A DNA stretch of 64,000 nt from a virus. Lineage: Duplodnaviria > Caudoviricetes. This document shows positions 7,110-30,302 of the stretch, in pieces (the stretch's first letter is position 1; each line of letters opens with the position of its first letter). The stretch spans positions 42,485 through 106,484 of the IMG/VR virus record IMGVR_UViG_2910013374_000001; one strand, 5' to 3'. The notes below the pieces were generated by a model. That model was not told the origin of the DNA. It saw nothing but the letters and a program-made list of their open reading frames with translations, and searched no databases. The position numbers and the translations under genes are program-made.

Positions 7110-7112
7110 TTG

Positions 7113-9933: not shown

Positions 9934-10019
9934 AGCGTTCCCGAGAAGGCAGTGGTGGCCTGACTTTCCCGGTGGCCTTGTGCTCGGAACCCTGGACACA
10001 CGAATGCGCACGCCCTCCC

Positions 10020-10451
10020 GTGATCGAGTCAGCCAACGAGATCCTGTTGAAGCTTCAGGCGGACGCAGACTTCATGGCGAACGTCGGCCACTACGACTTC
10101 GGCAGCGGGATCATCGAGACAGCTCTGACCGTGCTCGCTTCCAATCAGCACGTCCCGAACATCAAGCAAGTCGTCGGAGTCGAGGCGATCATCGGCCGCG
10201 TGCCAGACATGACCTCCAGGGCGATGGTCGCTGGCTGCAGCATCCGCGAAAAAATGTGGAGGGTCTACCTGGTTCAGTACGCAGGAAGTGACCTCGACGC
10301 AGCAATGCTTGCCGCTGATCGCATCGTTGATCTTTGTCCTGGGGCGTCTTACAGCTCAGTCGGTACAGGGGACACTCAGTCCGAGATCGCAGGTATCGAG
10401 CAGATAGTCGTCAAAATTCCAGCTCATGCTCCGTGGGCTGATCTGAACTAG
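10020..10451 (+). CDS. Putative tail terminator
   Basis: GTG 35 nt after CGGAACCCT; size and position. Confidence 0.5.
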   Translation: MIESANEILLKLQADADFMANVGHYDFGSGIIETALTVLASNQHVPNIKQVVGVEAIIGRVPDMTSRAMVAGCSIREKMWRVYLVQYAGSDLDAAMLAADRIVDLCPGASYSSVGTGDTQSEIAGIEQIVVKIPAHAPWADLN

Positions 10452-10485
10452 GGGACGGAAGACTCCAGAAGGTCGGAAGGGGCTT

Positions 10486-11553
10486 ATGGCGTCGCTGGAT
10501 CAGCTAAAGAAGAAGATCCAGGGCAACCCCGTCCTCAAGGCCGCGATCGGCGATGGCTCGATTCGCATTATTTACAAGGAACCGCCCGTCATCGACGAGG
10601 ACAGGTTGTTCCGCACCTGGACGCTTGAAGTCCTGATCGTTGACGACAGCACGTACAACGGCCTGATCCAGAAGTCCCTCGAGACGCTTGGCTTCGATGC
10701 CAGCCGCAAAGGCGACAAGATCACAGCCGTCCTCGATGAGGCCATCACCGCCAGTGAGCGGCAGGAGATGGAGGCCGACGACAGGCAAGAACGCAAGGCC
10801 GCAAAAGTCCAGGCAGACGAACGCAGGGATGACCTGCTGATCAAGACGCTCGAGGCCATGCAGGCCAAGATCGATGCGCTCGAGGAGAAGATCGAGTTCA
10901 TGTCCCTGGTGAAGGCCAAGGGGCAAGCAGGCCCGCCCGGACGACAAGGTCCGAGTGGTGCCGCGGGACGTGACGGCCAAGATCTCCTGGCTACGGACGC
11001 CAATCTTCAGGACCTGAACGACGTCTCAGACGAAACCCCCAAGCAGGGCCAAGTCGTGATGTATCAGGAGGCGACGGACTCCTGGGAGCTGCGCTTCCCC
11101 CCAATGGGAGGCGGCGGCGGCGGTGGTGGCGGAGCTGGTGGTGGTCAGGCCAAGCTTCAGCACTGGACCGAGACAAGTGAGGGGCACCTGGTTCCCAACG
11201 GCGAGGACCAGAACCTGGGCTCACCGACTCAGCCGGTTCGCGAGATCTATGTGACGGGCAACACCGTCTACATGGACAACAAGCCGCTATCGATCAACGA
11301 GAACGAGCGGATCTCATTTGACGGCAATCAGCTGGGCTATGGCGACGGCGACGTTTCTGAAGCTCCTGAGAACTCGGTTGCTTATGTCCGTAGAGATGGC
11401 ACCTGGATCCCTTTGGACACGGTCAACACCGATATCGAGTTGCCCACCTCCATCACTGCATACCCCAGCAACTACGCCAACATCGTCATCGACCTCGACA
11501 CCGGTTTGCTCGTTGCTGTGGAACCTGAGGACGTGATCAGCCCAGAGGGCTGA
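10486..11553 (+). CDS. Fibre/collar-like structural protein
   Basis: Coiled coil, collagen-like GPPGRQGPSG, LQDLNDV motif, EAP...YVRRDGTW foldon-like motif. Confidence 0.65.
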   Translation: MASLDQLKKKIQGNPVLKAAIGDGSIRIIYKEPPVIDEDRLFRTWTLEVLIVDDSTYNGLIQKSLETLGFDASRKGDKITAVLDEAITASERQEMEADDRQERKAAKVQADERRDDLLIKTLEAMQAKIDALEEKIEFMSLVKAKGQAGPPGRQGPSGAAGRDGQDLLATDANLQDLNDVSDETPKQGQVVMYQEATDSWELRFPPMGGGGGGGGGAGGGQAKLQHWTETSEGHLVPNGEDQNLGSPTQPVREIYVTGNTVYMDNKPLSINENERISFDGNQLGYGDGDVSEAPENSVAYVRRDGTWIPLDTVNTDIELPTSITAYPSNYANIVIDLDTGLLVAVEPEDVISPEG

Positions 11554-11611
11554 GAGAGGAAGCCTGAACTGATGGCCCACCAGTCATCGGATTCCAGCTC
11601 CTAGGAGACTT

Positions 11612-13402
11612 ATGGCCAGTTTTAAGGTCTCGCAGTTCACTGGGGTGACAGACACGACAGCAGATTCTCTGCTGCTCCTGGCGTACACCGCAGACAACGG
11701 CGCAACTTATTCCACACGAAAGATCCGCGTACAGGATCTTCTTGATGACCTCGCGCAAGATTCAGATCTCACCAGCCTGCTCACCCTTCAAGGTGTCCCT
11801 GCAGGATCAGCTGATCTGGGCAGCTTTACGGGCGACACGATCGCCGAGGGCGCAACAATCAAGGAAGCCCTTCAGGCCCTTGAGAGCAGCCTCGAACTTC
11901 AGCAAGGCGCTCTGACTGCCGGCAACGGTGTCGAGCTCGATGCTCAGGGAAACATCTCTTTGAAGATCGCCACCGGCGGCTTCCTTGAGTTCTCTAGCGA
12001 TGAGCTAAGTGTCAAGACTCTCGACGAAGATGACTTCGTCAGCAACAGCGACAGCCACCTCCCGACTCAGCAGTCGGTCAAGGCCTACGTTGACACCCAG
12101 ATCAGCACCCTTGGCAGCGTTTCTGAAGGCGCTTATGTCAAGAAGGACGGCTCTGTCGCCTTCGAGGGTGACCAGTCCATGGGCGGCTTTGAGCTGACCA
12201 ACCTGGCGATCCCGACACAGGATTCTTCCGCTGCCACGAAGCAGTATGTGGACCTGGCCGTTCAAGGCCTGGACCTCAAAGAGTCCGTCCGTGCAGCCAC
12301 AACTGTTGAGCTTGCTCTCGTCGGTGAGCAGGTTGTTGACGGTGTGTCCCTGACGGCAGGTGATCGCGTTCTGGTCAAGAGCCAGACCGACGCCAGCGAG
12401 AACGGCATCTACGTCGTCGACGCAGGCGCTTGGACCCGTGCAGAAGACGCCGATGGCAACCCCGACGGTGAAGTCACCTCAGGGATGTTCACCTTCGTCG
12501 AAGAAGGCACGGTCAATGGTCAGAACGGCTTCTCGCTGTCGACTGCCAACCCGATCCTTGTAGGCGCAACGGATCTCACTTTTGTTCAGTTCTCTGGCGC
12601 TGGTCAGATCACCGCTGGAAACGGCATCTCGATCACTGGCAACGAGATCAGCGTTGCTCCTGCTGTCCTTTCGGACATCAGTGACCTGGCCTCCCTTACT
12701 GGAGTGAGCGGAAGCAGCGATCTCGGGACGTTTGCTGGCGACACGATCGCCGATTCCTCGACCATCAAGGAAGCTCTCCAATCCCTGGAGACCCTGGCCG
12801 AAGCAGTCGCCTCGAACATCGCGACGAACGACACCGAACTGGCTGATCATGAGAGCCGGATCGCTGCCAACGAGCTGAACATCGCCTCGATCGATGGAAT
12901 CAATACAGCTCAGTCCACCCGCATCTCTGACCTTCAGGATGCTTTAGGTGCTGCTGACGGTGTGCAGGACATGGGCTCCTTTACGGGTGCCACCATCACC
13001 GACAACGGATCCGTCCGTGACGCCCTGCAAGAACTGGAAACAGCTCTCGAGCAGCTGGCACTTGACTCAGGCTCCGGCTCTGCTGTTGCAGCCAACTTGG
13101 CTGAGATCACCGCCCTGCGTTCCGCTCAAGGAACTGCTAACGGCGACATCAACCTCGGCACCTTCACCGGTGGCACGATCAGCGACAACGCCAGCGTGAA
13201 AACCGCCTTGAGCGAGTTGGAAGCTGCTGTTGAAGCTGGTGCTGGCAACTACGTCAGCAAAGGCGCCAACGTCACCGAATTGGTGGCTGGAACGGTTGCA
13301 GAGACCGAGCCTGCTAACTACCTCTTCATGGTGGTTGACCAGGCCGATGGCTCAATCAAGGTCCTCGACAAGACTTTCATCGAGACCGAAGAATCCGCCT
13401 GA
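11612..13402 (+). CDS. Head/tail fibre protein with four DLGxFTGxTIxDxxxxKxALxxLE repeats
   Basis: AATKQYVD...GDRVLVKSQT...ENGIY...WTRA fibre domain; coiled coils. Confidence 0.75.
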   Translation: MASFKVSQFTGVTDTTADSLLLLAYTADNGATYSTRKIRVQDLLDDLAQDSDLTSLLTLQGVPAGSADLGSFTGDTIAEGATIKEALQALESSLELQQGALTAGNGVELDAQGNISLKIATGGFLEFSSDELSVKTLDEDDFVSNSDSHLPTQQSVKAYVDTQISTLGSVSEGAYVKKDGSVAFEGDQSMGGFELTNLAIPTQDSSAATKQYVDLAVQGLDLKESVRAATTVELALVGEQVVDGVSLTAGDRVLVKSQTDASENGIYVVDAGAWTRAEDADGNPDGEVTSGMFTFVEEGTVNGQNGFSLSTANPILVGATDLTFVQFSGAGQITAGNGISITGNEISVAPAVLSDISDLASLTGVSGSSDLGTFAGDTIADSSTIKEALQSLETLAEAVASNIATNDTELADHESRIAANELNIASIDGINTAQSTRISDLQDALGAADGVQDMGSFTGATITDNGSVRDALQELETALEQLALDSGSGSAVAANLAEITALRSAQGTANGDINLGTFTGGTISDNASVKTALSELEAAVEAGAGNYVSKGANVTELVAGTVAETEPANYLFMVVDQADGSIKVLDKTFIETEESA

Positions 13403-17787: not shown

Positions 17788-20700
17788 ATGTCAGGTGGAC
17801 TTGGAGAAGTCAAGGTATCGCTAGGACTTGACACGTCCAAGGCCAAAGGCCAGATGGCGGAGTTCTTCTCCGGCATTGGAAAGAACCCTGTTCAGAATCC
17901 TTTTAAGGGCCTCGACGAAAGCCTCAAGAAAACAGGCCAGGCCGCTAAGACACTTACAGATCAATTCAAGCCCTTACAAAAGAGTGATCTCCTCAAGGGC
18001 ATCACAACTTCAACCAAGCAGGCCAAGACAGATCTCGACAGCCTGGGAACCGCGGGCAAGACCCTCAAGACAACGCTCCAAGGCTTAGGGCAAGGCGGAA
18101 ATGGACTCAAGACTCTTGGCACTGACGCCAAGACGGCCTACGGCTCCGTTCAGAATCTCTCTACAGGCGCGAAGACTCTCGGGGCTGCAATCACAGGCCT
18201 GAATAGGGCCAAGCCCCTGCCTGGGATGAAGGCGACGCTGGACCAGATCAATGGCACAGCAAGAACAACCACCACAACCTTCGGGACGCTCAAGACTGCG
18301 CTCAACAATGCAGGGCAAGGCGGCAAGTCGCTGACCCAGTTGCCCACAGGGCTCAACGCCGTCAAGACAGCGCTTCAGGGTGTCAAGAATTCAACGACCG
18401 GTGTCGGCACCGAATTCACGAAGTCCAAGACCGTTGGTGAGGGATTCCTCGACTCAATCAGGAACGGCTTCAAGAATCTGGCGACTGGCATTCCTCAGGG
18501 CATCGGCCTCGCACTCGGCAACGCGATCCTGCAGCCCCTGAAAAACATCGCTGGCGTTATTCCTGCAGCGGTTGAAGAGTTCAGAGCGCTTGATGAGCAG
18601 CTCCGCTTAACCCTTGAAATTTCTGGCGCAGGTGCTTCGAAGTTTGGTGAGCTGCAGCAAGCAGTTCTGGACGTTTCGAGTCAGTTCGCAGCGACGGCTG
18701 TCGAGGTCGCAAAGGTTCAGCAGTCCTTGGCTCGCGCTGGATTCTCGCTCGATGAAATCAAGCAGGCGACCACCGGGGTCATCCAAGGCGCAGAAGCAAC
18801 TGGCACCAGTTACGAGCGAATGGGCGACATCGTCGTCTCAGCTCTTGGTGCATTTGGTCTTGCTGCAAGTGACTCGACTGACGTTGTTGACACCCTGACG
18901 GTCGCAGCCAACAGCTCCAACCAGTCAGTCAATGACTTGGGAGAGGCGATCAAATACGTCGGCCCGATCGCGGCATCGACAGGTCAGTCATTGCAAGACG
19001 TTTCCCTGGCCCTCGAACTGCTAGCCAACAACGGCATCAGGGGTTCACAGGCAGGCACCAGCTTCCGCACGATTCTGACCAACCTCCAGATCGCAGCATC
19101 AGGCGCGGGCGAGGAGTTCATGGGCCTGACTCGAGGCTCCACGCGACTGGCCAAAACCCTGAAGGTGATCGGCGCTGACATGACCGACGCCAATGGCGAA
19201 CTTCTAACGGGTCGCGACTTGATCGAGGAGCTGCAGCGCTCCATGGAAGGTCTGTCGTCTGGAGAGAAGGCGCTGGTCTCCAAAGCGCTTGCCGGCGCTG
19301 AAGGGCTGCCCGCAATGAACTCCCTGATCAACGCCAGTACAGAGCAGATCGACAAGTTGGCCGAAGGTCTTGAGAACAGGGCAGGCAAAGCAGCTGAGCA
19401 GGCGGAGAACGCACTGGCCGGTCTGTCTGGTTCGTTCAAAGTCCTCGAGTCGAATGTCTCGGCCGCCCTGGTTCAGATCGGCGCGATCATCGCGACAGCA
19501 CTGAAGCCGCTGATCGATGCGGCCACTGCAGTCCTGGCAGCTCTGAATGGGCTCCCCGGTCCGATCAAGAACCTCCTCACCACCCTCGCTCTGCTCGGTA
19601 CTGCCATCGGCGCGACTGTGGTGGCGCTCAATCTCCTCAAAGGCACCAAGGTCTCGGGCTTCTTCCTGGAAGCGGCTGCCGGTGTCAAGAAATGGGCCGC
19701 ATCGATTGCCACAGCAAACATCGGAGGGACTCTCACGACCTGGGTGAGCTCGCTCGCTGTTTTTGGGAAGAAGGTCAAGGCCACACTCATCTTGGGCCTC
19801 ACCAATGCGACCAAGAGCCTGAACGACTTCAGGAAAACGCTCTCGAGCATCAAGGTCGGGAACATCCTGAACAACCTCACCGAGGGCTTCTCGAACTTCT
19901 TCAAGGTCGCCACTAAGAAGGGCATCCCTGCGGCGATGAACGGCCTCAAGGTCGGAGCAAACGGAGCTTTGGGTGCGCTTAAGGGTCTCTTGCCTGCGAT
20001 CGGAGGCTTTGTAACCGCTGCGGCTCCGTTTATCGCAATCGGTGCAGGCATTGTTGCCACATGGGTCGCCATTCAACGCCGTTGGGAAGCAGCCAAGGCC
20101 GTTGCAGATCCGCTGGCGGATTCACAGTCATCGCTTGACGATGCACTTCGCAAGGCGGGAGAAGGCGGAGAAGTCGCCGCCGAGGGCTACACCGGATGGG
20201 GCAAAGCCATCGAGGACGCACTTGGTCCGCTCGATCGCTTACTAAGTATTGCCAGCCCCCTATACAACGGCATCAAGCTCGTCGCCGAGGTTCTCGGCAA
20301 GGTCGACAACTGGAGCCGCAACAACGCCGCTGTCCAGCAGGTCAACGACGAGTATGCGAAGTTCCAGAAGTCGATGGATGCGACCAATCGGAAGATCAGC
20401 GAGAACCGCGATGCGATGTCACGACTCAACCCGGAGTCGGAAGAGTTCGGGCGGCTGGCAACTGAGAACGCTGAACTGATCAAGGCTGAGAAGAATGCCG
20501 TTCAGGACCGCATCAAAGCGATCGACAGCACGATCGCAAAACTCAAAGAGAACGAAGGAGCGAACCGCAGAACGATCGATGCCCTCGAGGAGATGAAGGG
20601 CAAGTACCAGGATCAGCTCCCCGTCATCGAGGCGAACGAAGCCTTGCTGCGTGAAGAAAGACAGACCTATGAGGAGCTCAGCGGATCTGTTCAGAACTAC

Positions 20701-23700
20701 ACGCTGAGGCTTGATGAAGCCACCGAAGCAAGAGAGAAATCATTCTCAAAAGCAGATACTCAGGTCATCTACGACGAACTGGAGGCTTACAACGCGCTTA
20801 AGGAAGGCCTGATCAACGAAGCCGAGGAGCGTGCAATCAATGCCAAGGCGGCTCTCAATGCAAGTGACGCCAAGATCAAGGCCGTCAACAACGAGATGAC
20901 GGAGATTCAGGCGGCTTACGACGAAGGCGCGATCTCCCTCGATCAGTACGAAAAGCGGATGGATGCGGCCTATAAGGCCATGGAAGGCCTGACGGAAGGC
21001 CGGATCGAGACTGAAAGGGCAGCAACGGAAGCAATCAGGGCAGCGGTCGAATCGCGCATCGCTGAGTACGAGAGAGAAGCTCAGGGTGTGGCTTCAGCGA
21101 TCCAGAAGATCAACACCGCCATCGGCGAGATTCAGCAGGTTCGTGGGACTGGTATCTCAGCGTTCAAGACCCTGGCTCAGGAGGTCACAAACGCAGAGAT
21201 TGCTGGGATCGATAGGGCGAAGACAGCTCGAGATCAAGCCATCGATAACAACCTGCAGAACCGGCTCAGGGCAATCGAGAAAGCTGGCTACGGAGAGAAG
21301 ACAGCAGCAAGGAAGAAGAGGCAAGCGGAAGCCAATGCCGAGTCCGCACGCATGGACGCCGAGCGCAGCTACGTCAACGAGCGCAGGAACATCATGCAGA
21401 AACAGATCGACTTCGAGAAGAAAGCACTCGAAGCTCAGATCGCTCTCAAGAAGGTCGAGCTCGAACTTTGGTATGAGCAGGCAAGGGTCTCGTCAGAATT
21501 GGCCATTGCGCAGAACGCTGCAGCCCAAGCACGAGCAGAAAACAGCGGTGACAAGAAATTGATCGAGGCCCTCGAGAAGGAGGAAGAGATCTTGAAGAAG
21601 CAGCTCGGTCAGCTGGACCAGATGAAGAAGCTGAAGGGCGCGGTCCTGAAGGTCGAAGAAGACATCGGCAAACAGCAGATCTCAACCAAGGCCAGCGCTG
21701 AGGGTGTCGCCTCTGGTTACGGCACCGTCGTCACGAGTATCGAGTCGGTCAGCAGCGCTCTCGATGGCTTCCTGGGCGAGACGCAGCAGCTCGAGAAGTC
21801 CTGGGAGCCGCTGAAGAAAGGATTGGGCGAGATCCCCATGGACGTGAAACAACGCGTCGAAGAATCCAAACGGATCATCGAACAAGGCTTTGGCGAAGTT
21901 TCCTTCGAAGGACTCAAGCAGTCCTTGCTGGATCGTGGCTTTACCCCTGCTATTGCCGAACAGACCGCCAAGAGACTCACGAGCGCTTTCGAAACCGAGT
22001 CCGTACTGGCTGGTGACATTGCTGCCAAAAACATCCTCGATCGTTTTGGCGATGCGATCCCAAAGGATCTGATCAAAGATCAACTCATCAACGCTTTCGT
22101 CGATGGCGCAAACGTCTCACTCGCAGAAGCTGAGCGTCGCTTCTCCGAGCTACCCAACAAGCTTTCTGCCGAGAAGGCAGCCCGGACTCTGGCCCTCGCT
22201 CTCGAAGGGGGTGTCAACGCGGGCTACGCGGCTCTAGCGAACACACCACTCCCTCCTGGTCTGTTCAGCGGTGCAGGCGAGAAGCTCACAACAGAGATCA
22301 ACTATGCAACGGAAACGGCCAAGCCCGCGCTTGAAGGACTCGGCCAAGTAGGTCGGGCCAGCCTCGACCAGATGACGCTGGGCCTGGGATCCTCCTCCAT
22401 CGAAATTGCAGAGTTCGCTCTCACCTCTGGCCAGCAGATCGCGCAAGGTTTCTCCGAGGGGAGCCGCGAAGGCTTCAACGCCATCGGAGAGGTGGCTAAG
22501 GACGGCCTTTCAACCATCCCGACCTTCTTCAACAACAACATCGTCAGTGACATGAGCCAGGGTTTCATCACCCTTGCTGACAACTTCTCCGGCTTCTCTC
22601 AAGGGGCTGGCCAATCACTGAATCAGTCACTGGCGGAAGGCCTTGACGAGGCAGCAACAGTTGCAGCCCCGAGATTCGTTCAGAGCATTGGCGACGTGAT
22701 CATCCCAGGCATGGGCACCATCACAGCAGCTCTGACCAATGATTTTGGGGAGGCTGGAAAAATTGCCGGTCAAATCTTCGGTGAAGAAAACACCACCGCT
22801 TTCTTGCAAAAAGCAGAGGGAATCAAGAACGGACTGATCGAGTACTTCACCGGCGGGGACCTGGACACTGTGATCAGCGGAGCGGGTGAGACCAATGGCT
22901 TCAACTTTGCCAATGGCTTCACTCAGGAATCGATCCCAGTGATCAACGAGTTCGCCAGTACCGTCGGCGAACGATTCGGGAATCTGATCCCCAAGGAGGC
23001 CATCATTGGCAACCTGCGCTTTGCCTTAGAAGACGGCACTTTCCAGGGCACTGAGCGGGCCAACGAGATCATCGCCGGTTTGCCTGACGCGATCCCCAGG
23101 GAAGAGGTCGCCAGAATTTTGGGAACAGGCTTCGAAGAAGGAGCGGCTGTAGGCGAAGACTTCCTCAACAACATCAAGCTCGAAGGCGACACGATCGAAG
23201 AGATCGAGAGAGACCTTGCGTCCGGACTTGAGGGAGGTGCCGAAGACGGCGCCAAGAAGATCACCGAGAAGATTGATGAGACCAAAGATCCCGCTGCAGA
23301 AAAGATCGCCGACGCCATTGGCAGCGGATTCTCCGAGGGAGCTCAGAAAGGTGGAGAGGAAGTGATCAAGTGGTCGGAAGATGCTGGCGTGAAGATCGGG
23401 GACAACCTGTCCAAGGGCGCTGAGGGTGCTTCCGAAAAAATCGTCAAAGCTTTCGACAACGAGTTCAAAGTCCTCAAAGAGGACATTGCCAACCTTGGGG
23501 ATGAGATCGATGTCCAGAAAATCGAGAAGGCGATCAACAAGGGACTCAGCGAACCGATCAAGAAAGCCTCTGAGGAAATGGGCAACATCCGCCTTCCTGA
23601 AGGCTTTGCCGCCACGTTGACAGAAGCGGGAGAGGGCGCCAAGTCGATCGCCCAATCCAACTTCGCTCAGGAGCTACGCGGAGCAGCGAACGCAGCCAGG

Positions 23701-24252
23701 CCACTGGCAAGCAACACCAGGCCCCTGTCATCGAATATCAGGAGAGCGGTCGGCCCTGCCAACTCATTGGCCCGCGCTCTGGAACGTGCCGCACGTGCCG
23801 CAGCAAGAGCAGCCGCCGCAAGATTCGCCGGTGGCCCTGTTGAAGGCGGTCAGACCTACACGGTCAACGAGCTCGGGAAAGAGATGTTCATGTCCAAGTC
23901 AGGCAGCCTCTCGGAGATCAAGGCTCCCGCATTCGGAGACTGGCGAGCACCATCGAGCGGAACTGTTATCCCTGCAGGTATCGCCCAACAGATCCGCGAC
24001 AACCGTGAAGCACAGTCAGCCGCTCAACAGATCCAATCTGTCCAGGGCGCAGTTTCTCCACGCTTGTCCGGCGAGGGCGGTGGCGGCAGCGACATGTCCA
24101 ACGCAATCCTCAAGGGCCTCAAGGGTCTGGGCGGTGGCACCAATCAGCAGGTGACCAACAACGTCCAGATCACCAGCCAGGCTCCGGTCAACGATGCCTC
24201 TCGCATTCTCACTGACCTGGCTCGACTCAGGAGCCAACGACGACGACGCTGA
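17788..24252 (+). CDS. Tail tape measure protein (TP901-type core), 2154 aa
   Basis: LARAGF...LGEAIKYVGP...GIRGSQAGTSFR core; C-terminal GGPV...YTVNELGKE. Confidence 0.93.
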   Translation: MSGGLGEVKVSLGLDTSKAKGQMAEFFSGIGKNPVQNPFKGLDESLKKTGQAAKTLTDQFKPLQKSDLLKGITTSTKQAKTDLDSLGTAGKTLKTTLQGLGQGGNGLKTLGTDAKTAYGSVQNLSTGAKTLGAAITGLNRAKPLPGMKATLDQINGTARTTTTTFGTLKTALNNAGQGGKSLTQLPTGLNAVKTALQGVKNSTTGVGTEFTKSKTVGEGFLDSIRNGFKNLATGIPQGIGLALGNAILQPLKNIAGVIPAAVEEFRALDEQLRLTLEISGAGASKFGELQQAVLDVSSQFAATAVEVAKVQQSLARAGFSLDEIKQATTGVIQGAEATGTSYERMGDIVVSALGAFGLAASDSTDVVDTLTVAANSSNQSVNDLGEAIKYVGPIAASTGQSLQDVSLALELLANNGIRGSQAGTSFRTILTNLQIAASGAGEEFMGLTRGSTRLAKTLKVIGADMTDANGELLTGRDLIEELQRSMEGLSSGEKALVSKALAGAEGLPAMNSLINASTEQIDKLAEGLENRAGKAAEQAENALAGLSGSFKVLESNVSAALVQIGAIIATALKPLIDAATAVLAALNGLPGPIKNLLTTLALLGTAIGATVVALNLLKGTKVSGFFLEAAAGVKKWAASIATANIGGTLTTWVSSLAVFGKKVKATLILGLTNATKSLNDFRKTLSSIKVGNILNNLTEGFSNFFKVATKKGIPAAMNGLKVGANGALGALKGLLPAIGGFVTAAAPFIAIGAGIVATWVAIQRRWEAAKAVADPLADSQSSLDDALRKAGEGGEVAAEGYTGWGKAIEDALGPLDRLLSIASPLYNGIKLVAEVLGKVDNWSRNNAAVQQVNDEYAKFQKSMDATNRKISENRDAMSRLNPESEEFGRLATENAELIKAEKNAVQDRIKAIDSTIAKLKENEGANRRTIDALEEMKGKYQDQLPVIEANEALLREERQTYEELSGSVQNYTLRLDEATEAREKSFSKADTQVIYDELEAYNALKEGLINEAEERAINAKAALNASDAKIKAVNNEMTEIQAAYDEGAISLDQYEKRMDAAYKAMEGLTEGRIETERAATEAIRAAVESRIAEYEREAQGVASAIQKINTAIGEIQQVRGTGISAFKTLAQEVTNAEIAGIDRAKTARDQAIDNNLQNRLRAIEKAGYGEKTAARKKRQAEANAESARMDAERSYVNERRNIMQKQIDFEKKALEAQIALKKVELELWYEQARVSSELAIAQNAAAQARAENSGDKKLIEALEKEEEILKKQLGQLDQMKKLKGAVLKVEEDIGKQQISTKASAEGVASGYGTVVTSIESVSSALDGFLGETQQLEKSWEPLKKGLGEIPMDVKQRVEESKRIIEQGFGEVSFEGLKQSLLDRGFTPAIAEQTAKRLTSAFETESVLAGDIAAKNILDRFGDAIPKDLIKDQLINAFVDGANVSLAEAERRFSELPNKLSAEKAARTLALALEGGVNAGYAALANTPLPPGLFSGAGEKLTTEINYATETAKPALEGLGQVGRASLDQMTLGLGSSSIEIAEFALTSGQQIAQGFSEGSREGFNAIGEVAKDGLSTIPTFFNNNIVSDMSQGFITLADNFSGFSQGAGQSLNQSLAEGLDEAATVAAPRFVQSIGDVIIPGMGTITAALTNDFGEAGKIAGQIFGEENTTAFLQKAEGIKNGLIEYFTGGDLDTVISGAGETNGFNFANGFTQESIPVINEFASTVGERFGNLIPKEAIIGNLRFALEDGTFQGTERANEIIAGLPDAIPREEVARILGTGFEEGAAVGEDFLNNIKLEGDTIEEIERDLASGLEGGAEDGAKKITEKIDETKDPAAEKIADAIGSGFSEGAQKGGEEVIKWSEDAGVKIGDNLSKGAEGASEKIVKAFDNEFKVLKEDIANLGDEIDVQKIEKAINKGLSEPIKKASEEMGNIRLPEGFAATLTEAGEGAKSIAQSNFAQELRGAANAARPLASNTRPLSSNIRRAVGPANSLARALERAARAAARAAAARFAGGPVEGGQTYTVNELGKEMFMSKSGSLSEIKAPAFGDWRAPSSGTVIPAGIAQQIRDNREAQSAAQQIQSVQGAVSPRLSGEGGGGSDMSNAILKGLKGLGGGTNQQVTNNVQITSQAPVNDASRILTDLARLRSQRRRR

Positions 24253-24312: not shown

Positions 24313-24347
24313 CTCCGGAACCCTGAACCGACGTGATCGACGGTTCT

Positions 24348-24767
24348 GTGGCCTGTATCCAACACCCTGGCATCACCGTCACATTCACCGACGGAACCAC
24401 TCTGTACAAGGTTCAGATCGACAAGTTCACTGCTGAGCCCAGGCAATTCGTTGAGGCCGGCCAACTGACATTCAGTACGTCGGGAACTGCAACCCAGTCA
24501 GGCAGCAGCCGTGCGAACCGGATGACATGGGCGATCAGCGCCTTCGCAAGCGTCGAGACCTGTTTCAGTCTTGATGAGCTTTATCGCGCCTGGGATGCAG
24601 CAAGAGCTTCAGGCCTGACAGCTGTGGTTGCGATCACCGATCAGACCCGCGTCCGAGACCCGATCAATTCCCCCATTACTGCTTCTGCTGTTTTTACTGC
24701 TCCTCCTGTCTTCGAGCGCCGTTCAGGTGTCACGGACTTGCTGAGCTTCGGACTGACGGAGATCTGA
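24348..24767 (+). CDS. Putative distal tail protein
   Basis: Immediately after tape measure; GTG 24348 is 32 nt after CGGAACCCT (alternative start 24333). Confidence 0.55.
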   Translation: MACIQHPGITVTFTDGTTLYKVQIDKFTAEPRQFVEAGQLTFSTSGTATQSGSSRANRMTWAISAFASVETCFSLDELYRAWDAARASGLTAVVAITDQTRVRDPINSPITASAVFTAPPVFERRSGVTDLLSFGLTEI

Positions 24768-24770: not shown

Positions 24771-26987
24771 ATGGCATGGCTTAACAACACAGCGGTCCGC
24801 TGCACGGTCTCCATCAACGGCGCGGACTACAGCGACGAGTTCACCGGCGGTTCTCTGTCGGATTCGAGTGTTGTCCAAGGAGGATTCGTCACGACGGGCG
24901 GGAGCCTCACCTTTCAAGACTTACCCGGATTCAGCCGCCTAGAGGACTACGACGACACGAAGTTTGGTCGTGGAGGCATTGTCACGATCGACCTGCAAAC
25001 CGCAGGTTCTGAGATGCGCCGCCATCCTCGCGGTCACCTTCGCGTGATCACGGCCACCTATTCGCCAGAGACACGTTCGATGACTGTCGAGGTGGGTTGC
25101 CTGCTCACATTGCACAACTTGACGAATGACATCACCAACCTGAAATACCTGACGGTCTTCGACTTGCCAAACGAGGCGGGGATGAGCGATCTCAGTGCCG
25201 CACTGGCTTCTGAATCGAAGTTCGCATGGCAAAAGAGCGACGGCTCGATACAGCTCTCTTCCTTCTTCGGATCTGACGGACTCGGCTCCAATAAATACCC
25301 GGCTAGGTGGGTCAGCGTTCGCGATCAGACGGCCATCGCGTCCCAGCCGCTAGGCGGAGGCAATCCAATCCCAGACCTGATCCGGTGCACCTACACCTGG
25401 GCAACTGTCGAGTCAGACGATGGCGGCGGCGGCGATGGACCAGCTGAGGACATCGATGAAACGGTCTCTGTTTATTGGCTGGAGCACCCCGCTCAACTGA
25501 AGAAGACTCAAAAAATATGCACCACTGACTTGGCTGGGACTAGGACCTGCCGACAGGTCGAAGTCAATGACGGCAAGAAATCCTTCTCAGTCACTAAGAC
25601 CAACAATTCAAGGCGTGTCTACGGAGCACTCGGTGCCTCTTTATCTAGCGAGATCTCAATCACGGAGGGGCCTGCTGTTGAGCTCGCTGGCGGATACTTC
25701 GGCGAGCTCTATGCGTTCAAGCTTGCTCGAGCTAACTACGTTGCGGCCAACGTTCCCCTCGACGGTCTGAACACGGTCGTCCAAGAGAAGAGAGAGAAGA
25801 GCTACGTCTACGGGACCGGTGGCGAAGTACTCAAGACCATTGAGTACACCTACAGGAACTACATCTCGGCGATGACTACGAACGACTGGCGAGCAGGAAC
25901 GTTCGACACTGGCTCTGAGTACGACCCAGAGAACCCCCCGTCGCAGGGCACTCGTGGATTCTTGACTGACATCCCCTCCGACAAGTTGTACTTATCGCAA
26001 AAGGTCACCACTGAGTGGGAGTACTTCGATGACCGCACGATTGAGAAGAAGTCCACCCTCCAATCAAGTGCTCAGTGCAACGGCGTTGGCATCTTCCCAA
26101 CCCAAGGCGAGCGAATCCTTGAGAACATCGATGCGACCAATAACGGAGTCGAAACTTCGCAGACGCGGACCAGTCGTGGAGGCTTGCTAAATCCTGACCA
26201 GCCGCCAAGGAATCCAGGCACAGCTGCGATTTCAACGAAGTCAGAGGTTTATGAGAACGAGTCTGCGAAATACACACCAACGACTGCTGGATCCATCGTC
26301 TTGAACACGAGCGTCCCTTACACGAATTTGGGCGACACAGAATCACAAGCAAGGACTAGAGCTGCCGCCTACACCCAAAACCAGCGCCAGTTACTCGAGG
26401 GCGACGCTGCTGGCATCAGGGTGGCCGAATCGATGCGCGAGGAAATCTTTGACTACTACCCAGGGATGCCTTTCAGCTTCTTCGACCCCACGCTTGAGAA
26501 ACTCATCAAGTTGAGGATGAACGCAACGGGGTGGGCTCTTTCGACCAGTCAAGCGATCTTCTCGACCGACGGAGTGTTCATTGGTGTCTCGAATGGCACG
26601 GTCACTCTTCCCAGCAACGTTGACGCAGTCAGCGCCAACAACGCTTTCGAGGAAGTGCTCTTCAAGAGGAATCAGACGGAAATCGCTGAGGATGCCTTTG
26701 AGGTCGCCGATCAAGCTTGCGACGTTGACCTTGACCTGCTGGCAGCTATCGAAGAGGAGCAGGCAGAACGACTCCTTCCTGACGAGCCCGACCAGATCTT
26801 TGAGGCTCTTGTGATTCAGGTTCCTGAATTTGTCGTGACGACAGGAGCACCTGAGCCGGACGAGATCTTCGTTGTCGACATTCAGAACGATGCGCCACCT
26901 GCCAACAAGACCTACGGAGTGATCAGCGCAGAAGAGTCCTTCGAGGTCATAACCGCGGACACTTTCGAGGTGACAGTTGCCGACTAG
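24771..26987 (+). CDS. Putative baseplate hub/tail-tip protein with C-terminal PDQIFxV-type repeats
   Basis: Position after Dit-like gene; size; repeat tail. Confidence 0.6.
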   Translation: MAWLNNTAVRCTVSINGADYSDEFTGGSLSDSSVVQGGFVTTGGSLTFQDLPGFSRLEDYDDTKFGRGGIVTIDLQTAGSEMRRHPRGHLRVITATYSPETRSMTVEVGCLLTLHNLTNDITNLKYLTVFDLPNEAGMSDLSAALASESKFAWQKSDGSIQLSSFFGSDGLGSNKYPARWVSVRDQTAIASQPLGGGNPIPDLIRCTYTWATVESDDGGGGDGPAEDIDETVSVYWLEHPAQLKKTQKICTTDLAGTRTCRQVEVNDGKKSFSVTKTNNSRRVYGALGASLSSEISITEGPAVELAGGYFGELYAFKLARANYVAANVPLDGLNTVVQEKREKSYVYGTGGEVLKTIEYTYRNYISAMTTNDWRAGTFDTGSEYDPENPPSQGTRGFLTDIPSDKLYLSQKVTTEWEYFDDRTIEKKSTLQSSAQCNGVGIFPTQGERILENIDATNNGVETSQTRTSRGGLLNPDQPPRNPGTAAISTKSEVYENESAKYTPTTAGSIVLNTSVPYTNLGDTESQARTRAAAYTQNQRQLLEGDAAGIRVAESMREEIFDYYPGMPFSFFDPTLEKLIKLRMNATGWALSTSQAIFSTDGVFIGVSNGTVTLPSNVDAVSANNAFEEVLFKRNQTEIAEDAFEVADQACDVDLDLLAAIEEEQAERLLPDEPDQIFEALVIQVPEFVVTTGAPEPDEIFVVDIQNDAPPANKTYGVISAEESFEVITADTFEVTVAD

Positions 26988-27024
26988 GGACTGGGAACCC
27001 TAGCCGTGATGCCAGGCCCCTTGT

Positions 27025-29466
27025 ATGCCCGATTACAACTACCTGGAAGATCTCACCGATGCTGAGCTTGAAGCTCTTCGGGTCGAGGTCGCTTCACGTT
27101 GTTCGGTGTGCCAGGTCGAGGTCGAGGATTTACAGGACGCTTTAGACGATGCAAGCCAGGCAGAAGAAAACGCTCAACAGACATACGAAGACACCGTTGA
27201 AGCAGTAGTCCAGATTCCAACTGTTGTTGGTGAAACATCTGTTTCTTCGGGTGGCTCTGGTCCAGACGTTGTCGAATTCATTGCCATCGATATCCCTGTC
27301 GGCGCTGTGGTCTCCACCGGAAATGGTGACGATGGCATCGGAGTCCTTACGAGCTGGGATGTCCCAGAGGAGTTGCGGCTCAACTTCAACATCTTGGTCT
27401 TCGTTTCAGGCGAGAAGGTTGGAGCGAATGCCCAGATCCTTGAAGCGGACTACATCGGCGGCATCCCTGACTTCCAGGACAGCATCCTTGTCTCTGACGA
27501 TGGTGTGATCATTCCAGATCTGTTTGATCCAGAGGTGGAGCGCAGTCCGGATCAGACTTTCTTTGTTGGAACAGGTCCGAAGGCTTTTGAAGAGGTCTTC
27601 ACGGTGAGGGTCTTCGCTGAGGTTCCAAACCAAACCTTTGATGTCAGCACATTCGCGAAACCTGCTGATCAGATCTTCAGCGTTGAGAGCATTCGGACTT
27701 ACGGCATCTCCGTGGCTGAGCCTCCTTTCCTCGTAGAGGTGGGTCCAGAAGTACCCGACCAGATCTTCAGTACCAGGACGAGCGCGACTCCTCCGGACAG
27801 GACTTTTGTTGTCAACCGTGGAGCAGAGATTCCCTCGCAGGTTTTCGAAGTACTCACAGGCAACACCTTCGAGGTCTTTACTTCTTTCGCACCTCCGGAC
27901 AGAACGTTCTACGTGCAACTGGGTCCACCACCTGCCAGAGATCCGGATCAAATCTTCGGCGTCTCAGTCGGAGGCCCCGACGCTCCTCCGATCCCCGATC
28001 CTTTCCAGATCTTCGACGTTTCAACGTCATGGGCGACCCCGGACAGAGTTCTCGACATCAAGGTCATCACCAACCGAGTGGTGGATGCCTTCGAGGCTCC
28101 CTTCTCCGTCACCGTCGGCCCAGAAGCACCGTCCCAGGTCTTCGAAGTCATCACAAGCGCCATCCCTTACGACCAACTGTTCAGCTTTGAGGTTGGACCT
28201 GAGATCCCCACTCAGATCTATGACACTGCTGTCATCCAGGAGTTCGAGGTTGATGCCTACGAGCGCAGGGTCACCTATCAGATCCAGGAATCCAATATCT
28301 CTGGCGATGAGAACTACATCGTCAGCGGTGAAGGCCTTGAGTTTGCTGTTGAACCAGAGATCGCTCTGAAGGTTGGTCAGATGGCTCACCTCTACGTGAA
28401 CACCCCAGGGAATGCCCTTTGGATCAAGGACGTCCAAGAGGCGGGTGCAGGCGAACTCGACCCCTACTTCGTGTCAGTTACAAACCAAGGCACGACCAAC
28501 AAGCTTGTGAAGGCTCAGTTCTTGCAGAGCGGGACCTTCTACTACCAGTCGGAGTTCAACGCTGAAGCCTTTGGTGTCATCGAGGTGACAGGCGTGTCTT
28601 CTGCAGCTCCTGATCAAATCTTTGATGTCTTCGTTGGAGCTGATCCCACGGGGTTCAGCGAATTGTTCGATGTGACCGTCGGCCCGGAATTCCCTGACGA
28701 GGTCTTCGTCGTGGACATTCAAAACGAAGCGCCTCCTGTTCACCAGATCTTCGAAAGCACTGTTGGACCTGAGCTTCCTCTCGAGAGCTTCGAAGTTCTC
28801 AGCGCAACCGCGCCGCTCTCCTACAACGTGACCAACTCTGGAGCTGGCTCGTACCTGTTCAGCGGGAATGGACTGAGTTTCGCGTCCAATCCCACACTCA
28901 ATCTCGAGGTGGGGCAAATGCTCGAAATTGCTATCAATGCAGCCGGCCACCCCTTCTACGTCAGCGACAGCAACTCAAGTGGCGTGAAGGACTCCGTCAC
29001 TCCTTACATCCACGACATCGTCGGTCAGGGGGCTGCTTTAGGAGCGATCCGCGTGATCTTCTCCCAGCCCGGCACGTACTACTACAACTGCGGTTTCCAT
29101 GCCGCCATGAGTGGAGAGATCGTCGTCACGGGCGTCGGCATGGATCAGAAGATCTACACGGTGTCGCAGGCTCAGGATCGCTACACCCTCTCCGGTGAAG
29201 GCTTGCTGAATGAGAGCAACCCGACCATCAGCGTCGGTGTGAGCGAAACCTTGTTCTTGTCTGTGGTGGCACCGGATCAGCCCGTCTACATCAAACGCGC
29301 TCCTGGCACTGGCACCGAAGTCCAGAGCCCCGACTTCATGCAGCTCCTTGTGAGACAGGGAACAACTGACGGCCTTATGAAGATGCGCTTCCTGCTTCCC
29401 GGCACCTATTACTACGCCAGCTCGAACGACCAGAAGTTCGGGGGAGTGATTGAAGTCACGGCCTAA
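27025..29466 (+). CDS. Tail-associated protein with >20 PDQIFxVxV repeats and three cupredoxin-like domains
   Basis: NPTLNL..G...GHPF...PGTYYYNCGFHAAMSG in domain 2; degenerate domains 1 and 3. Confidence 0.75.
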   Translation: MPDYNYLEDLTDAELEALRVEVASRCSVCQVEVEDLQDALDDASQAEENAQQTYEDTVEAVVQIPTVVGETSVSSGGSGPDVVEFIAIDIPVGAVVSTGNGDDGIGVLTSWDVPEELRLNFNILVFVSGEKVGANAQILEADYIGGIPDFQDSILVSDDGVIIPDLFDPEVERSPDQTFFVGTGPKAFEEVFTVRVFAEVPNQTFDVSTFAKPADQIFSVESIRTYGISVAEPPFLVEVGPEVPDQIFSTRTSATPPDRTFVVNRGAEIPSQVFEVLTGNTFEVFTSFAPPDRTFYVQLGPPPARDPDQIFGVSVGGPDAPPIPDPFQIFDVSTSWATPDRVLDIKVITNRVVDAFEAPFSVTVGPEAPSQVFEVITSAIPYDQLFSFEVGPEIPTQIYDTAVIQEFEVDAYERRVTYQIQESNISGDENYIVSGEGLEFAVEPEIALKVGQMAHLYVNTPGNALWIKDVQEAGAGELDPYFVSVTNQGTTNKLVKAQFLQSGTFYYQSEFNAEAFGVIEVTGVSSAAPDQIFDVFVGADPTGFSELFDVTVGPEFPDEVFVVDIQNEAPPVHQIFESTVGPELPLESFEVLSATAPLSYNVTNSGAGSYLFSGNGLSFASNPTLNLEVGQMLEIAINAAGHPFYVSDSNSSGVKDSVTPYIHDIVGQGAALGAIRVIFSQPGTYYYNCGFHAAMSGEIVVTGVGMDQKIYTVSQAQDRYTLSGEGLLNESNPTISVGVSETLFLSVVAPDQPVYIKRAPGTGTEVQSPDFMQLLVRQGTTDGLMKMRFLLPGTYYYASSNDQKFGGVIEVTA

Positions 29467-29511
29467 GGGCGTTCGGAACCCTACGGCCGAACACGCGACG
29501 CCCCCCATTCA

Positions 29512-29850
29512 ATGGCTGTCTTTTACATCGACAATGTCGCCCAGGACACCTTGACCATGGTGAAGGGCAACATCTACCGCTTCGACCAGAACAACGGGTC
29601 GAATGCTGCAGCACCCTTAAGTCTTTCCGAAACCGAGGACGGCGACAACAACGCTGGCGCCCCATACACCGTGGGCGTGAGCTACTGGTTGAACAATCTT
29701 GAGGTGAACAGGACCACTTACCTGTCCGGCTTCGCAGGCGCCACCTCCCGCTTCATCCAGGTCCAAGTCGACCCCTCTGCACCAGCGGTCCTCTATTACT
29801 ACGCAGTCGGAACACCGACCATGGGCGGCCCGATCAATATCACCACCTAA
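29512..29850 (+). CDS. Small cupredoxin-like virion protein lacking the first strand and Cu ligands
   Basis: FYID..Q.TL...KG..YRFDQ...SN..P...AP..LYYY...MGG.I pattern. Confidence 0.65.
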   Translation: MAVFYIDNVAQDTLTMVKGNIYRFDQNNGSNAAAPLSLSETEDGDNNAGAPYTVGVSYWLNNLEVNRTTYLSGFAGATSRFIQVQVDPSAPAVLYYYAVGTPTMGGPINITT

Positions 29851-29864: not shown

Positions 29865-30302
29865 ATGCCAGTCCCCTCACAGGTATCGGCCGCCGAACTA
29901 GCGCGGGTGGCCGAGAAGTCGTACATCAACAACACGTTTCGTGTTGCCTTGGTGGATGCCCCTGGCAGCGACTTCGACGCAACCGACTCACTGTCAACGA
30001 TCTTGGCGAACGAGGTCACCTCGGGGCTTGGCGGTTACAGCCGCCAGCAAATTGGCTACACCTCAGCTGACCTTGACAGCTACAACAACGGCAGGAGAGC
30101 TCTCGCTCGTAAGGCAGCCACCTTCGTTCACAACGGGAATACAGCGGAGACGGTCCGCTTCTCTCACGTCGTGCTGCTGAACCCCACAGAAACCGCTGCA
30201 GTTGCAGTCACCAAGCTCTCGGCGCGAGCAACGTTGAGTGATGGGCAGTCCGCGATCTTTTACTTCGACTTAACGCTCTACGGAGTGTTTGTGGTGGAGT
30301 AA
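29865..30302 (+). CDS. Putative tail-tip structural protein
   Basis: FRVALV...NEV..GGYSR pattern; position. Confidence 0.55.
   Translation: MPVPSQVSAAELARVAEKSYINNTFRVALVDAPGSDFDATDSLSTILANEVTSGLGGYSRQQIGYTSADLDSYNNGRRALARKAATFVHNGNTAETVRFSHVVLLNPTETAAVAVTKLSARATLSDGQSAIFYFDLTLYGVFVVE

What the first reader, a model, noticed from the sequence alone, without database searches (positions are those of the whole stretch)
26775..29850. Orphan beta-strand array beside a strand-less cupredoxin-fold protein: possible donor-strand-complemented beaded fibre
Seen: the tail of 24771-26987 and much of 27025-29466 consist of >20 repeats like P-D-Q-(I/T/V)-F-x-V-x-V-G-P at ~13-16 residue spacing. The three complete cupredoxin-like domains in 27025 each begin with a similar strand (RVTYQIQE, PLSYNVTN, KIYTVSQ) before Y-x-x-x-G...PTL. 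The next gene (29512, own late motif) encodes the same fold but starts directly at FYID...DTL, without that first strand. Established: donor-strand complementation builds chaperone-usher pili. Inference: many copies of the 112-aa protein complete their fold on each orphan strand, making beads on a string.
Basis: partly seen in the sequence, partly recalled or inferred. Interest (0 to 1): 0.85.

Follow-up and report, generated by a model that had tools for sequence, protein, structure and literature searches.

The report
Strand-less cupredoxin beside phage strand array
In the tail-tip genes of a P-SS2-like cyanophage prophage, a small virion protein is a copper-protein-like domain that always lacks its first strand and sits next to fibre proteins carrying about thirty look-alikes of that strand, so it probably clips onto the fibre by borrowing a strand, but a 20-bead string is unproven and less likely.

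Summary
P0001 (27025-29466) and the tail of P0003 (24771-26987) carry about 31 short strands of the type P-D-Q-I-F-x-V-x-V. P0001 also has three confident cupredoxin-like domains, each with its own first strand. The 112-aa protein (29512-29850) and all 43 orthologues start at strand 2, whereas about 95% of 225 related domains carry strand 1 in cis.

The strands resemble that missing strand 4-9 times more often than shuffled controls. In P-SS2 and a relative, the array protein ends on the best strand-1 look-alike just before the 112-aa gene. The P-SS2 orthologue is a virion protein.

The "20 beads on a string" reading is not supported:
- The array is hierarchical, with five-strand modules of about 57 residues, tight hairpins and one invariant hinge.
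- It is fused to a hub-like protein (presumably trimeric) in relatives.
- AlphaFold2 folds the small protein alone with confidence.

Best reading: a presumably trimeric central-fibre shaft with cupredoxin knobs, plus a split-domain joint that holds the small protein at one or a few sites.

The scan noted this gene block before in another genome, and split-domain joints in other phages.

The parts
24771..26987 (+). P0003, 738 aa, the hub-like (Tal-like) protein that follows the tape measure gene and a small Dit-like gene.
   Evidence: Gene order. ESM Atlas structural neighbours are Phage_GPD hub proteins, TM 0.61-0.64 by row, from a low-confidence model, so this is a lead only. No Pfam, PHROG, NCBIfam or PDB hit.
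26763..26984 (+). C-terminal tail of P0003 with about 6 strand repeats. It ends in TFEVTVAD, followed by the stop codon.
   Evidence: The last 8-mer is the best strand-1 look-alike in the whole 64-kb window: 12.1 bits, next best 9.3.
27025..29466 (+). P0001, 813 aa, the fibre protein: helix, small conserved domain, two strand arrays and three cupredoxin-like domains.
   Evidence: It has 45 homologues carrying 0-3 cupredoxin domains, some of them fused to the hub protein.
27058..27207 (+). Long N-terminal helix (residues 12-61), a candidate coiled coil.
   Evidence: DSSP helix 12-61 with pLDDT 72-83.
27262..27528 (+). Conserved 'TGNGDDG' region (residues about 80-168) that precedes the array in all relatives.
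   Evidence: Nearly invariant T98, G99, D103, G104, G106, G129, G145, D165 and F167. It is poorly modelled, pLDDT 38-51.
27532..28269 (+). Array 1 (residues 170-415): about 20 strands in four five-strand modules. Each module ends in a tight hairpin. An invariant hinge G-V-S-V-G-G-P-D-A-P-P lies at residues 311-321.
   Evidence: Self-comparison peaks at offsets 13, 56, 69 and 125. The two halves share 34 of 125 identities. pLDDT is about 30 with no DSSP strands in the monomer fold.
28270..28599 (+). Cupredoxin-like domain 1 (residues 416-525), without copper ligands.
   Evidence: pLDDT 91-97, first strand at 416-422.
28600..28815 (+). Array 2 (residues 526-597): five strands, which is one module.
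   Evidence: pLDDT is 32-40.
28816..29136 (+). Cupredoxin domain 2 (residues 598-704), which keeps the His, Cys-x2-His-x2-Met type-1 copper ligand pattern.
   Evidence: Sequence. Aligned to amicyanin. The profile hits pseudoazurin, plastocyanin and amicyanin at E from 0.002.
29137..29463 (+). Cupredoxin-like domain 3 (residues 705-813), with the copper ligands lost.
   Evidence: pLDDT about 88-92, first strand at 708-715.
29467..29511 (+). Spacer carrying TCGGAAC (29473-29479) inside a hairpin, GTTCGG 29471-29476 paired with CCGAAC 29487-29492. This is a promoter-like motif that also occurs upstream of other genes.
   Evidence: A similar motif sits in the same spacer of P-SS2, L003, L005 and L008. 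Its function is inferred.
29512..29850 (+). P0002, 112 aa: a cupredoxin-like domain without strand 1 and without copper ligands.
   Evidence: The P-SS2 orthologue ORF080 was detected in virions (PMC2784084).

Best explanation
This is the central tail-fibre module of a P-SS2-like siphovirus prophage of a marine cyanobacterium.

A hub-like protein (P0003) is continued by a shaft. In some relatives hub and shaft are one polypeptide; here they are separate genes. The shaft is built from five-strand modules of about 57 residues with roughly 13-residue strand spacing. It probably folds only as an oligomer, most likely a trimer set by the hub. Cupredoxin-like knobs interrupt and end the shaft, and one of them still has a blue-copper site.

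The 112-aa protein is a virion component. It is a cupredoxin-like domain whose gene lacks the first strand. I think it is fixed to the fibre by borrowing a strand-1-like strand in trans, as a split-domain joint at one or a few sites per chain:
- in the P-SS2 clade, the C-terminal strand of the array protein;
- in this window, possibly the C-terminal TFEVTVAD of P0003 or an internal strand.

I do not think it sits on every repeat.

Shown: the anatomy, the missing strand, the strand-1 likeness, the conservation and the virion presence. Inferred: the trimeric state, the docking and the stoichiometry.
For: - The family normally has strand 1 in cis (225 domain copies, about 95% include it). All 43 orthologues lack it.
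- The structural match to cupredoxins starts after their strand 1.
- The N-terminal 10 residues are the least confident part of the stand-alone model, pLDDT 66 against 85-94.
- Array 8-mers are strand-1-like 7 times more often than shuffles, and far more often than other phage proteins. This repeats at 4-9 times in P-SS2, L002, L003 and L008.
- In P-SS2 and L005 the best strand-1 look-alike of the locus is the extreme C-terminus of the array protein, directly before the 112-aa gene. In the window it is the C-terminus of P0003.
- Gene order is conserved in every locus examined.
- The 112-aa protein is the most conserved protein of the module, 57-84% identity against 36-56% for the Dit-like and hub proteins and 40-54% for the arrays.
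- ORF080 of P-SS2 is in virions.
- The array is fused to the hub-like protein in P-SS2, P0175, P0183 and others.
- P0003 resembles Phage_GPD hubs in the ESM Atlas.
- The arrays do not fold as a monomer.
- Precedent: in phage Tuc2009 a C-terminal hairpin of BppU completes a sheet of BppA (PMC4742702).
Against: - No complex could be modelled. In the read-through fusion fold the 112-aa part stayed unfolded, pLDDT 30-57.
- P0002 alone is predicted as a compact fold (pLDDT 86, pTM 0.77), so it may not need a donor strand.
- There is no universally placed terminal donor. In L002 and L003 the best look-alikes are internal, and L008 and L012 have none above 9.5 bits.
- The repeats also resemble the strand 6-arc-strand 7 segment of the domain, so the likeness is not exclusive to strand 1.
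- The hub assignment and the trimer rest on gene position and on a low-confidence Atlas model.
Confidence: 0.45

Rival explanations
1. Every orphan strand (20-30 per chain) is occupied by one copy of the 112-aa protein through donor-strand complementation, giving a thick beads-on-a-string or bottle-brush fibre.
For: - There are many strand-1-like strands.
- The arrays are unstructured when folded alone.
- Pro-rich linkers of 6-7 residues separate the strands.
- A promoter-like motif sits just before the 112-aa gene and nowhere else between 24 and 38.8 kb.
- The 112-aa protein is very highly conserved.
- It has the highest peptide density of the module in P-SS2 virions, 9 peptides per 113 aa against 43 per 1001 aa.
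Against: - Every fifth strand is the return arm of a hairpin with a 2-4 residue turn, for example QVFEVL-TGN-TFEVFT, and cannot hold a separate domain.
- The array has a 56/69/125-residue hierarchy and position-specific invariant residues (S314, G316, G317, A320), not equivalent sites.
- It hangs on a hub that is presumably trimeric.
- The length-normalised peptide ratio is about 2:1, not 20:1, and the counts are not quantitative.
- Strand spacing of 40-45 Angstrom at most is tight for a 30-40 Angstrom domain (my estimate).
Confidence: 0.1
2. No strand borrowing at all. The 112-aa protein is a self-sufficient seven-strand sandwich in which strand 2 pairs directly with strand 3. It binds elsewhere in the tail tip, for example to the conserved 145-aa, 93-aa or giant Cys-rich proteins downstream. 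The arrays are simply a trimeric beta-structured shaft, a triple beta-helix or similar.
For: - The stand-alone model is confident.
- Generic Ig-like sandwiches also match it.
- Alternating F-x-V-x-V with a conserved P-D-Q corner fits the stacked corners of a beta-helix.
- The ESM Atlas's own low-confidence model of the array is nearest to haemagglutinin-type beta-helix repeats, TM 0.51.
- In L012 the block from the array gene to the giant gene stays together while the hub and Dit-like genes are inverted.
Against: It does not explain three things: why a family that keeps strand 1 in about 95% of copies loses it in exactly this orthologous group; why the neighbouring strands are specifically strand-1-like; and why the P-SS2-clade gene boundary falls exactly between strand 1 and strand 2.
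Confidence: 0.3
3. The arrays fold by themselves as monomeric domains, either two-sheet solenoids or small five-strand barrels of about 57 residues, and need no partner.
For: The regular five-strand modules and the 125-residue duplication. The repeat unit resembles a strand-arc-strand segment of the cupredoxin domain.
Against: AlphaFold2 with 50 homologues gives pLDDT of about 30 and not one DSSP strand over residues 158-409 and 530-589, while neighbouring domains reach 90-97. The ESM Atlas model is also poor, pLDDT 0.47.
Confidence: 0.08

Closest known systems
Prochlorococcus siphovirus P-SS2, ORFs 078-084 (Sullivan et al. 2009, PMC2784084)
   Same: The same gene block: tape measure, small protein, hub-plus-array protein, 112-aa protein, 145-aa protein, about 90-aa protein, giant Cys-rich protein. 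The 112-aa proteins are 71% identical. ORFs 079-084 were detected in virions.
   Different: In P-SS2 the hub and the array are one 1000-aa protein with no cupredoxin domain, and it ends on a strand-1-like strand. Here the fibre is split into two genes and has gained three cupredoxin domains. The paper gives no function or structure for these ORFs.
Lactococcus phage Tuc2009 baseplate joint BppU-BppA (crystal structure, PMC4742702)
   Same: [quoted passage not shown] The composite is a normal sandwich domain.
   Different: That joint is an Ig-like (titin-like) domain completed by a two-strand hairpin, seen by crystallography. Here the fold is cupredoxin-like, a single N-terminal strand is missing, there are about 30 candidate donors, and no complex has been observed.
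Donor-strand complementation in chaperone-usher pili (Fim, Pap, Caf1; established knowledge)
   Same: An incomplete beta-sandwich subunit and a spare strand on another chain.
   Different: Pilins lack the C-terminal strand, carry their own donor extension and polymerise head to tail with a chaperone and an usher. P0002 lacks the N-terminal strand, has no extension of its own, and has no chaperone or usher genes nearby.
Cupredoxins (plastocyanin, amicyanin, azurin; Pfam PF00127, PF13473)
   Same: Domain 2 keeps the His/Cys/His/Met ligand pattern and matches amicyanin and pseudoazurin. The best structural matches of the P0002 model are cupredoxins, Z 5.3-6.0.
   Different: P0002 and domains 1 and 3 have lost the ligands. 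P0002 lacks strand 1. All are parts of a phage fibre, not electron carriers. Pfam scores are below the cut-off.
Trimeric beta-structured phage and virus fibre shafts (triple beta-helix of T4 gp5C/gp12, adenovirus triple beta-spiral; from my own knowledge)
   Same: Short repeats with alternating inward hydrophobic residues and Pro/Gly corners, attached to a trimeric hub.
   Different: There is no sequence or profile match to any solved fibre. The 13-residue single-strand unit and the five-strand module do not fit the 15-residue two-strand spiral repeat or the 8-residue gp5C repeat.

Membership tests
Cupredoxin fold (plastocyanin/azurin-like) | Greek-key beta-sandwich of 7-8 strands. | tested here: met
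   Domains 1-3 are folded with pLDDT above 90 and 9-10 strands each. The profile matches pseudoazurin, plastocyanin and amicyanin at E 0.002-0.05. The top VIA matches of the P0002 model are mostly cupredoxins, Z 5.3-6.0, rmsd 2.5-3.3 over 77-92 residues. That Z is middling.
Cupredoxin fold (plastocyanin/azurin-like) | Type-1 copper ligands: His, then Cys-x2-His-x2-Met. | tested here: not met
   P0002 has AAPLSL and YYYAVGTPTMGG in place of the His and Cys-His sites. Domain 2 of P0001 does meet the pattern: GHPF and NCGFHAAM.
Cupredoxin fold (plastocyanin/azurin-like) | Pfam PF00127 or PF13473 above the gathering score. | tested here: not met
   P0001 scores 13.3 bits against a cut-off of 21.2, and 12 against 27. 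P0002 has no hit.
Phage tail-fibre cupredoxin-like domain family (phrog_708, 693, 677, 9158) | Significant profile match. | tested here: met
   P0002 matches phrog_708 at 1.4e-12 and phrog_693 at 8e-08. P0001 matches phrog_9158 at 2.8e-30 and phrog_677 at 1.1e-19. P0002 has 853 hits at E<=0.001 among representative proteins.
Phage tail-fibre cupredoxin-like domain family (phrog_708, 693, 677, 9158) | First strand T-[YF]-x-V-T-V in cis, before the KYYIDG strand. | tested here: not met
   It is absent from P0002 and from all 43 orthologues. It is present in about 95% of 225 domain copies.
Donor-strand complementation as in chaperone-usher pili | Subunit with an incomplete sandwich that lacks one strand. 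| tested here: met
   Strand 1 is missing.
Donor-strand complementation as in chaperone-usher pili | Each subunit carries its own donor extension, so that subunits polymerise head to tail. | tested here: not met
   P0002 is 112 aa, consists of the domain only, and has no N- or C-terminal extension.
Donor-strand complementation as in chaperone-usher pili | The donor strand occupies the groove of the acceptor. | not testable with these tools
   No multimer prediction was available. The read-through fusion fold left the P0002 part unfolded.
Split-domain joint between phage fibre proteins (Tuc2009 BppU-BppA type) | The donor strand lies at the terminus of the neighbouring structural protein, at the gene boundary. 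| tested here: inconclusive
   This is met in P-SS2 and L005, where the array protein ends on the best strand-1 look-alike (13.4 and 11.7 bits), one residue before the stop and just before the 112-aa gene. In the window P0001 ends in a complete domain, and the best look-alike is the C-terminus of P0003. In L002 and L003 the best look-alikes are internal.
Triple beta-helix / beta-spiral fibre shaft | Short repeats with alternating hydrophobic residues, and a homotrimer. | tested here: inconclusive
   The repeat pattern is present. The trimer is inferred only, from fusion to a hub-like protein. There is no match to solved fibres.

The most novel reading that the evidence does not exclude
The strand arrays are multivalent docking rails. 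Each free strand-1-like repeat, about 20-25 per chain and up to about 70 per presumably trimeric fibre, completes one copy of the strand-less 112-aa cupredoxin-like protein. The result would be a bottle-brush tail fibre assembled by donor-strand complementation, a building principle not described for any virus.
Probability: 0.1. Interest if true: 0.85.

Novelty: new variant of a known kind. Interest (0 to 1): 0.55.

Why it matters
P-SS2-like siphoviruses infect Prochlorococcus and Synechococcus, and their tail tips are structurally unknown.

If the strand-less cupredoxin-like protein is held by a borrowed strand, this would extend the split-domain joint seen in Tuc2009 to a different fold and to marine cyanophages. 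It would explain why this 112-aa protein is the most conserved protein of the module. It would also give a simple handle for attaching or exchanging tail-tip modules.

The strand array is an undescribed repeat family with no Pfam, PHROG-function or PDB relative. Its structure would be new information whichever model is right.

The retained blue-copper site on one knob raises a separate question about metal or redox use at a phage tail tip.

Tried and rejected
1. Upstream start or read-through supplying strand 1. The two ORFs are in the same frame here and in P-SS2, but they are separated by one to three stops and no start codon. They are in different frames in L002, L005 and L008. Rejected.

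2. Pseudo-complex by folding the natural read-through product (TAA=Q, P0198, 941 aa). The three complete domains folded, but the P0002 part did not (pLDDT 30-57), because only four orthologues aligned there. It says nothing about docking. A richer alignment (A4) pulled every cupredoxin domain onto the P0002 columns and was discarded.

3. Foldseek against the PDB with the P0002 model gave only generic Ig-like sandwiches, TM about 0.4, E above 0.001.

4. phmmer and profile searches of the PDB, Pfam and NCBIfam found nothing for the arrays, for P0003 or for P0002 itself.

5. ESM Atlas for the array: the Atlas's own model has pLDDT 0.47, and its neighbours (haemagglutinin repeats, a viral cluster) are leads only.

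6. Stoichiometry from the published P-SS2 proteomics. The peptide counts do not track copy number: the tape measure has 102 peptides, and ORF025, named among the most abundant, has 33. No ratio can be drawn.

7. The TCGGAAM motif as an enriched element. It is not enriched overall (16 found, 21 expected), although 14 of 16 copies are on the + strand and several lie 30-40 nt before start codons.

8. Literature searches for donor-strand joints in phage fibres and for cupredoxins in cyanophage tails found nothing relevant in the held library.
Full report
**Setting.** The window carries a siphovirus tail module on the + strand:
- a 2154-aa tape measure protein (17788-24252);
- a 144-aa protein (24333-24767);
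- P0003 (24771-26987, 738 aa);
- P0001 (27025-29466, 813 aa);
- P0002 (29512-29850, 112 aa);
- a 145-aa protein, a 93-aa protein and a 2678-aa Cys-rich giant.

The nearest annotated phage is Prochlorococcus siphovirus P-SS2, with the same gene order in ORFs 077-084. P0001's own record lies on a 2.73-Mb contig, so this is a prophage.

**The repeats are real.**
- A strict form of the motif occurs 14 times in P0001, against 0.27 expected from shuffles. In six-frame translation of the window it clusters only at 27-29 kb.
- Read by eye, there are about 20 strands in residues 170-415 of P0001, five in residues 526-597, and six in the last 74 residues of P0003.
- A profile self-comparison shows peaks at offsets 13, 56, 69 and 125. 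The two halves of array 1 share 34 of 125 residues.
- The array is therefore hierarchical: four modules of five strands (57, 57, 69 and 57 residues). Each module ends in a hairpin with a 2-4 residue turn.
- Near the middle lies a Pro-rich hinge, G-V-S-V-G-G-P-D-A-P-P. Its S314, G316, G317 and A320 are nearly invariant in 50 homologues.
- Array 2 is a single module.

**The domains.**
- AlphaFold2 on the natural read-through product folds three domains of P0001 with pLDDT above 90. Their first strands are at residues 416-422, 598-604 and 708-715.
- A profile of the family matches pseudoazurin, plastocyanin and amicyanin.
- Domain 2 keeps the His and Cys-x2-His-x2-Met ligand pattern.
- The arrays (residues 158-409 and 530-589) have pLDDT of about 30 and no DSSP strand at all. 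The ESM Atlas model is equally poor. A self-folding monomeric solenoid is therefore not supported.

**The 112-aa protein.**
- It belongs to a large phage fibre-domain family. There are 853 hits at E<=0.001, mostly inside long multi-domain proteins. PHROG hits include phrog_708 and phrog_693, annotated as tail proteins.
- In alignment A2 the longer homologues carry T-[YF]-x-V-T-V-x4-G-N directly before the strand that corresponds to residues 3-8 of P0002. The stand-alone proteins do not.
- A domain HMM finds 225 copies in 150 representative proteins, and about 95% start at HMM positions 3-11, which includes that first strand.
- All 43 full-length orthologues start MAV[FYL]Y or MTVYY, except one miscalled start, and 37 of them are exactly 112 aa.
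- No upstream start exists. Read-through is not conserved.
- Folded alone with 37 sequences the model is confident: pLDDT 86.2, pTM 0.77. The first ten residues are the weakest part, at pLDDT 66.
- An exhaustive structural search puts cupredoxins on top, at a middling Z of 5.3-6.0. Alignments to plastocyanin and azurin begin at their residues 10-12, after strand 1.
- From textbook knowledge of plastocyanin, strand 1 lies between strands 2a and 3 in one sheet. I could not inspect model coordinates to see how the gap is handled.

**Are the array strands like the missing strand?**
- I scored every 8-mer of the arrays against every position of the domain HMM.
- Windows whose best match falls on strand 1 occur at 5.0 per 100 residues. 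The rate is 0.72 in composition-matched shuffles and 0.14-0.78 in the tape measure, the hub body, the giant protein and the other fibres of the window.
- The enrichment repeats at 4-9 fold in the arrays of P-SS2, L002, L003 and L008.
- A second, weaker likeness is to the strand 6-arc-strand 7 segment (I-T-V-P-S-S-A-P-D-T-L-Y). This accounts for the P-D-Q lead-in of the repeats.
- The single best strand-1 look-alike on the + strand of the window is the very C-terminus of P0003, TFEVTVAD (12.1 bits).
- In P-SS2 and L005 the best look-alike of the locus is the very C-terminus of the array protein, one residue before the stop and 36-50 nt before the 112-aa gene. There the gene boundary falls exactly between strand 1 and strand 2 of a cupredoxin-like domain.
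- In L002 and L003 the best look-alikes are internal. L008 and L012 have none above threshold.

**Context.**
- The 112-aa gene follows the array gene in every locus examined. That pairing is an inference.
- The 112-aa protein is the most conserved protein of the module.
- Architectures vary. The array proteins have 0-3 cupredoxin domains. In P-SS2, L005, P0175, P0183 and others the array is the C-terminal part of the hub-like protein.
- P0003 has no family hit. Its ESM Atlas neighbours are Phage_GPD baseplate hubs, TM 0.61-0.64 by row, from a low-confidence model. Such hubs are trimers (established knowledge).
- P0001 starts with a 50-residue helix.
- In P-SS2 virions ORF079, ORF080 and ORF081 gave 43, 9 and 7.5 peptides. 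These counts do not track copy number, so only presence can be taken from them.
- A TCGGAAC motif inside a hairpin lies 32 nt before the ATG of P0002. It recurs before several other genes, and in the same spacer of the relatives. A promoter function is inferred.

**Weighing the models.**
The sequence data fit this better than I expected.
- A solved precedent exists in Tuc2009, where a C-terminal hairpin of BppU completes a sheet of BppA.
- The extrapolation to about 20 beads per chain is weak. Hairpins use up a fifth of the strands. The array has module structure and a unique invariant hinge rather than equivalent sites. The array hangs on a hub that is presumably trimeric. The small protein folds confidently alone in silico.
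- I therefore favour a presumably trimeric shaft plus a split-domain joint at one or a few sites (0.45). Next comes a self-sufficient small protein with no strand borrowing (0.30). The full bead model (0.10) and self-folding monomeric arrays (0.08) follow.
- The decisive test, co-folding or binding of P0002 with defined peptides, could not be run.

**Earlier notes of this scan.** They describe the same gene block in another genome, the copper-ligand pattern of domain 2, and several predicted split-domain joints in other phages. I checked only the Tuc2009 paper they pointed to.

Noticed in passing
window 28816-29136: Domain 2 of P0001 keeps a full type-1 copper ligand pattern (G-H-P-F and N-C-G-F-H-A-A-M). 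Domains 1 and 3 and P0002 have lost it. Relatives L002 and L003 also keep Cys-x2-His-x2-Met in their terminal domains.
   Followed up: partly
L006 5797-5960: In one P-SS2-like contig the spacer between the array gene and the 112-aa gene is expanded. It holds three to four tandem copies of a hairpin element of about 44 nt (ACCCGTGTACTTAGTTTAGTAACACAAACTAAGACGCAT). L005 lacks this element.
   Followed up: no
whole window; P0001 record: The protein's own record lies on a 2,728,628-bp contig. The module is therefore part of a prophage in a small bacterial genome (GC about 57%), which is unusual for marine picocyanobacteria.
   Followed up: no
L012 1232-3758 versus 3913-11935: In this relative the hub-like and Dit-like genes lie on the opposite strand from the array / 130-aa / 167-aa / 92-aa / giant gene block. 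The block beginning with the array gene therefore moves as a unit.
   Followed up: no
window 9984, 13418, 29473, 38883, 55831, 56674, 58894, 60357: TCGGAAC(C/A)CT lies 30-40 nt upstream of several start codons, often at the foot of a hairpin. Of the 16 TCGGAAM sites, 14 are on the + strand, although the heptamer is not enriched overall.
   Followed up: partly
window 29865-30302: The conserved 145-aa protein has a conserved segment [FY]-x-V-A-L-V-D-x-P-G-[ST] near residue 24. It loosely resembles strand 1 plus loop of the cupredoxin-like family. It did not reach my 9-bit threshold.
   Followed up: partly
window 27532-28269 and the domain HMM: The repeat unit (x-V-x-V-G-P-E-x-P-D-Q-I-F) resembles the strand 6-arc-strand 7 segment (I-T-V-P-S-S-A-P-D-T-L-Y-Y-Y) of the same domain family. 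This hints that the array arose by amplification of a cupredoxin fragment.
   Followed up: partly
window 26987/27025, L002 5421/5441, L003 5621: The gene break between hub and fibre falls at a different point in each clade: after the short array, before it, before the TGNGDDG region, or not at all in P-SS2. The split has therefore arisen or moved repeatedly.
   Followed up: partly
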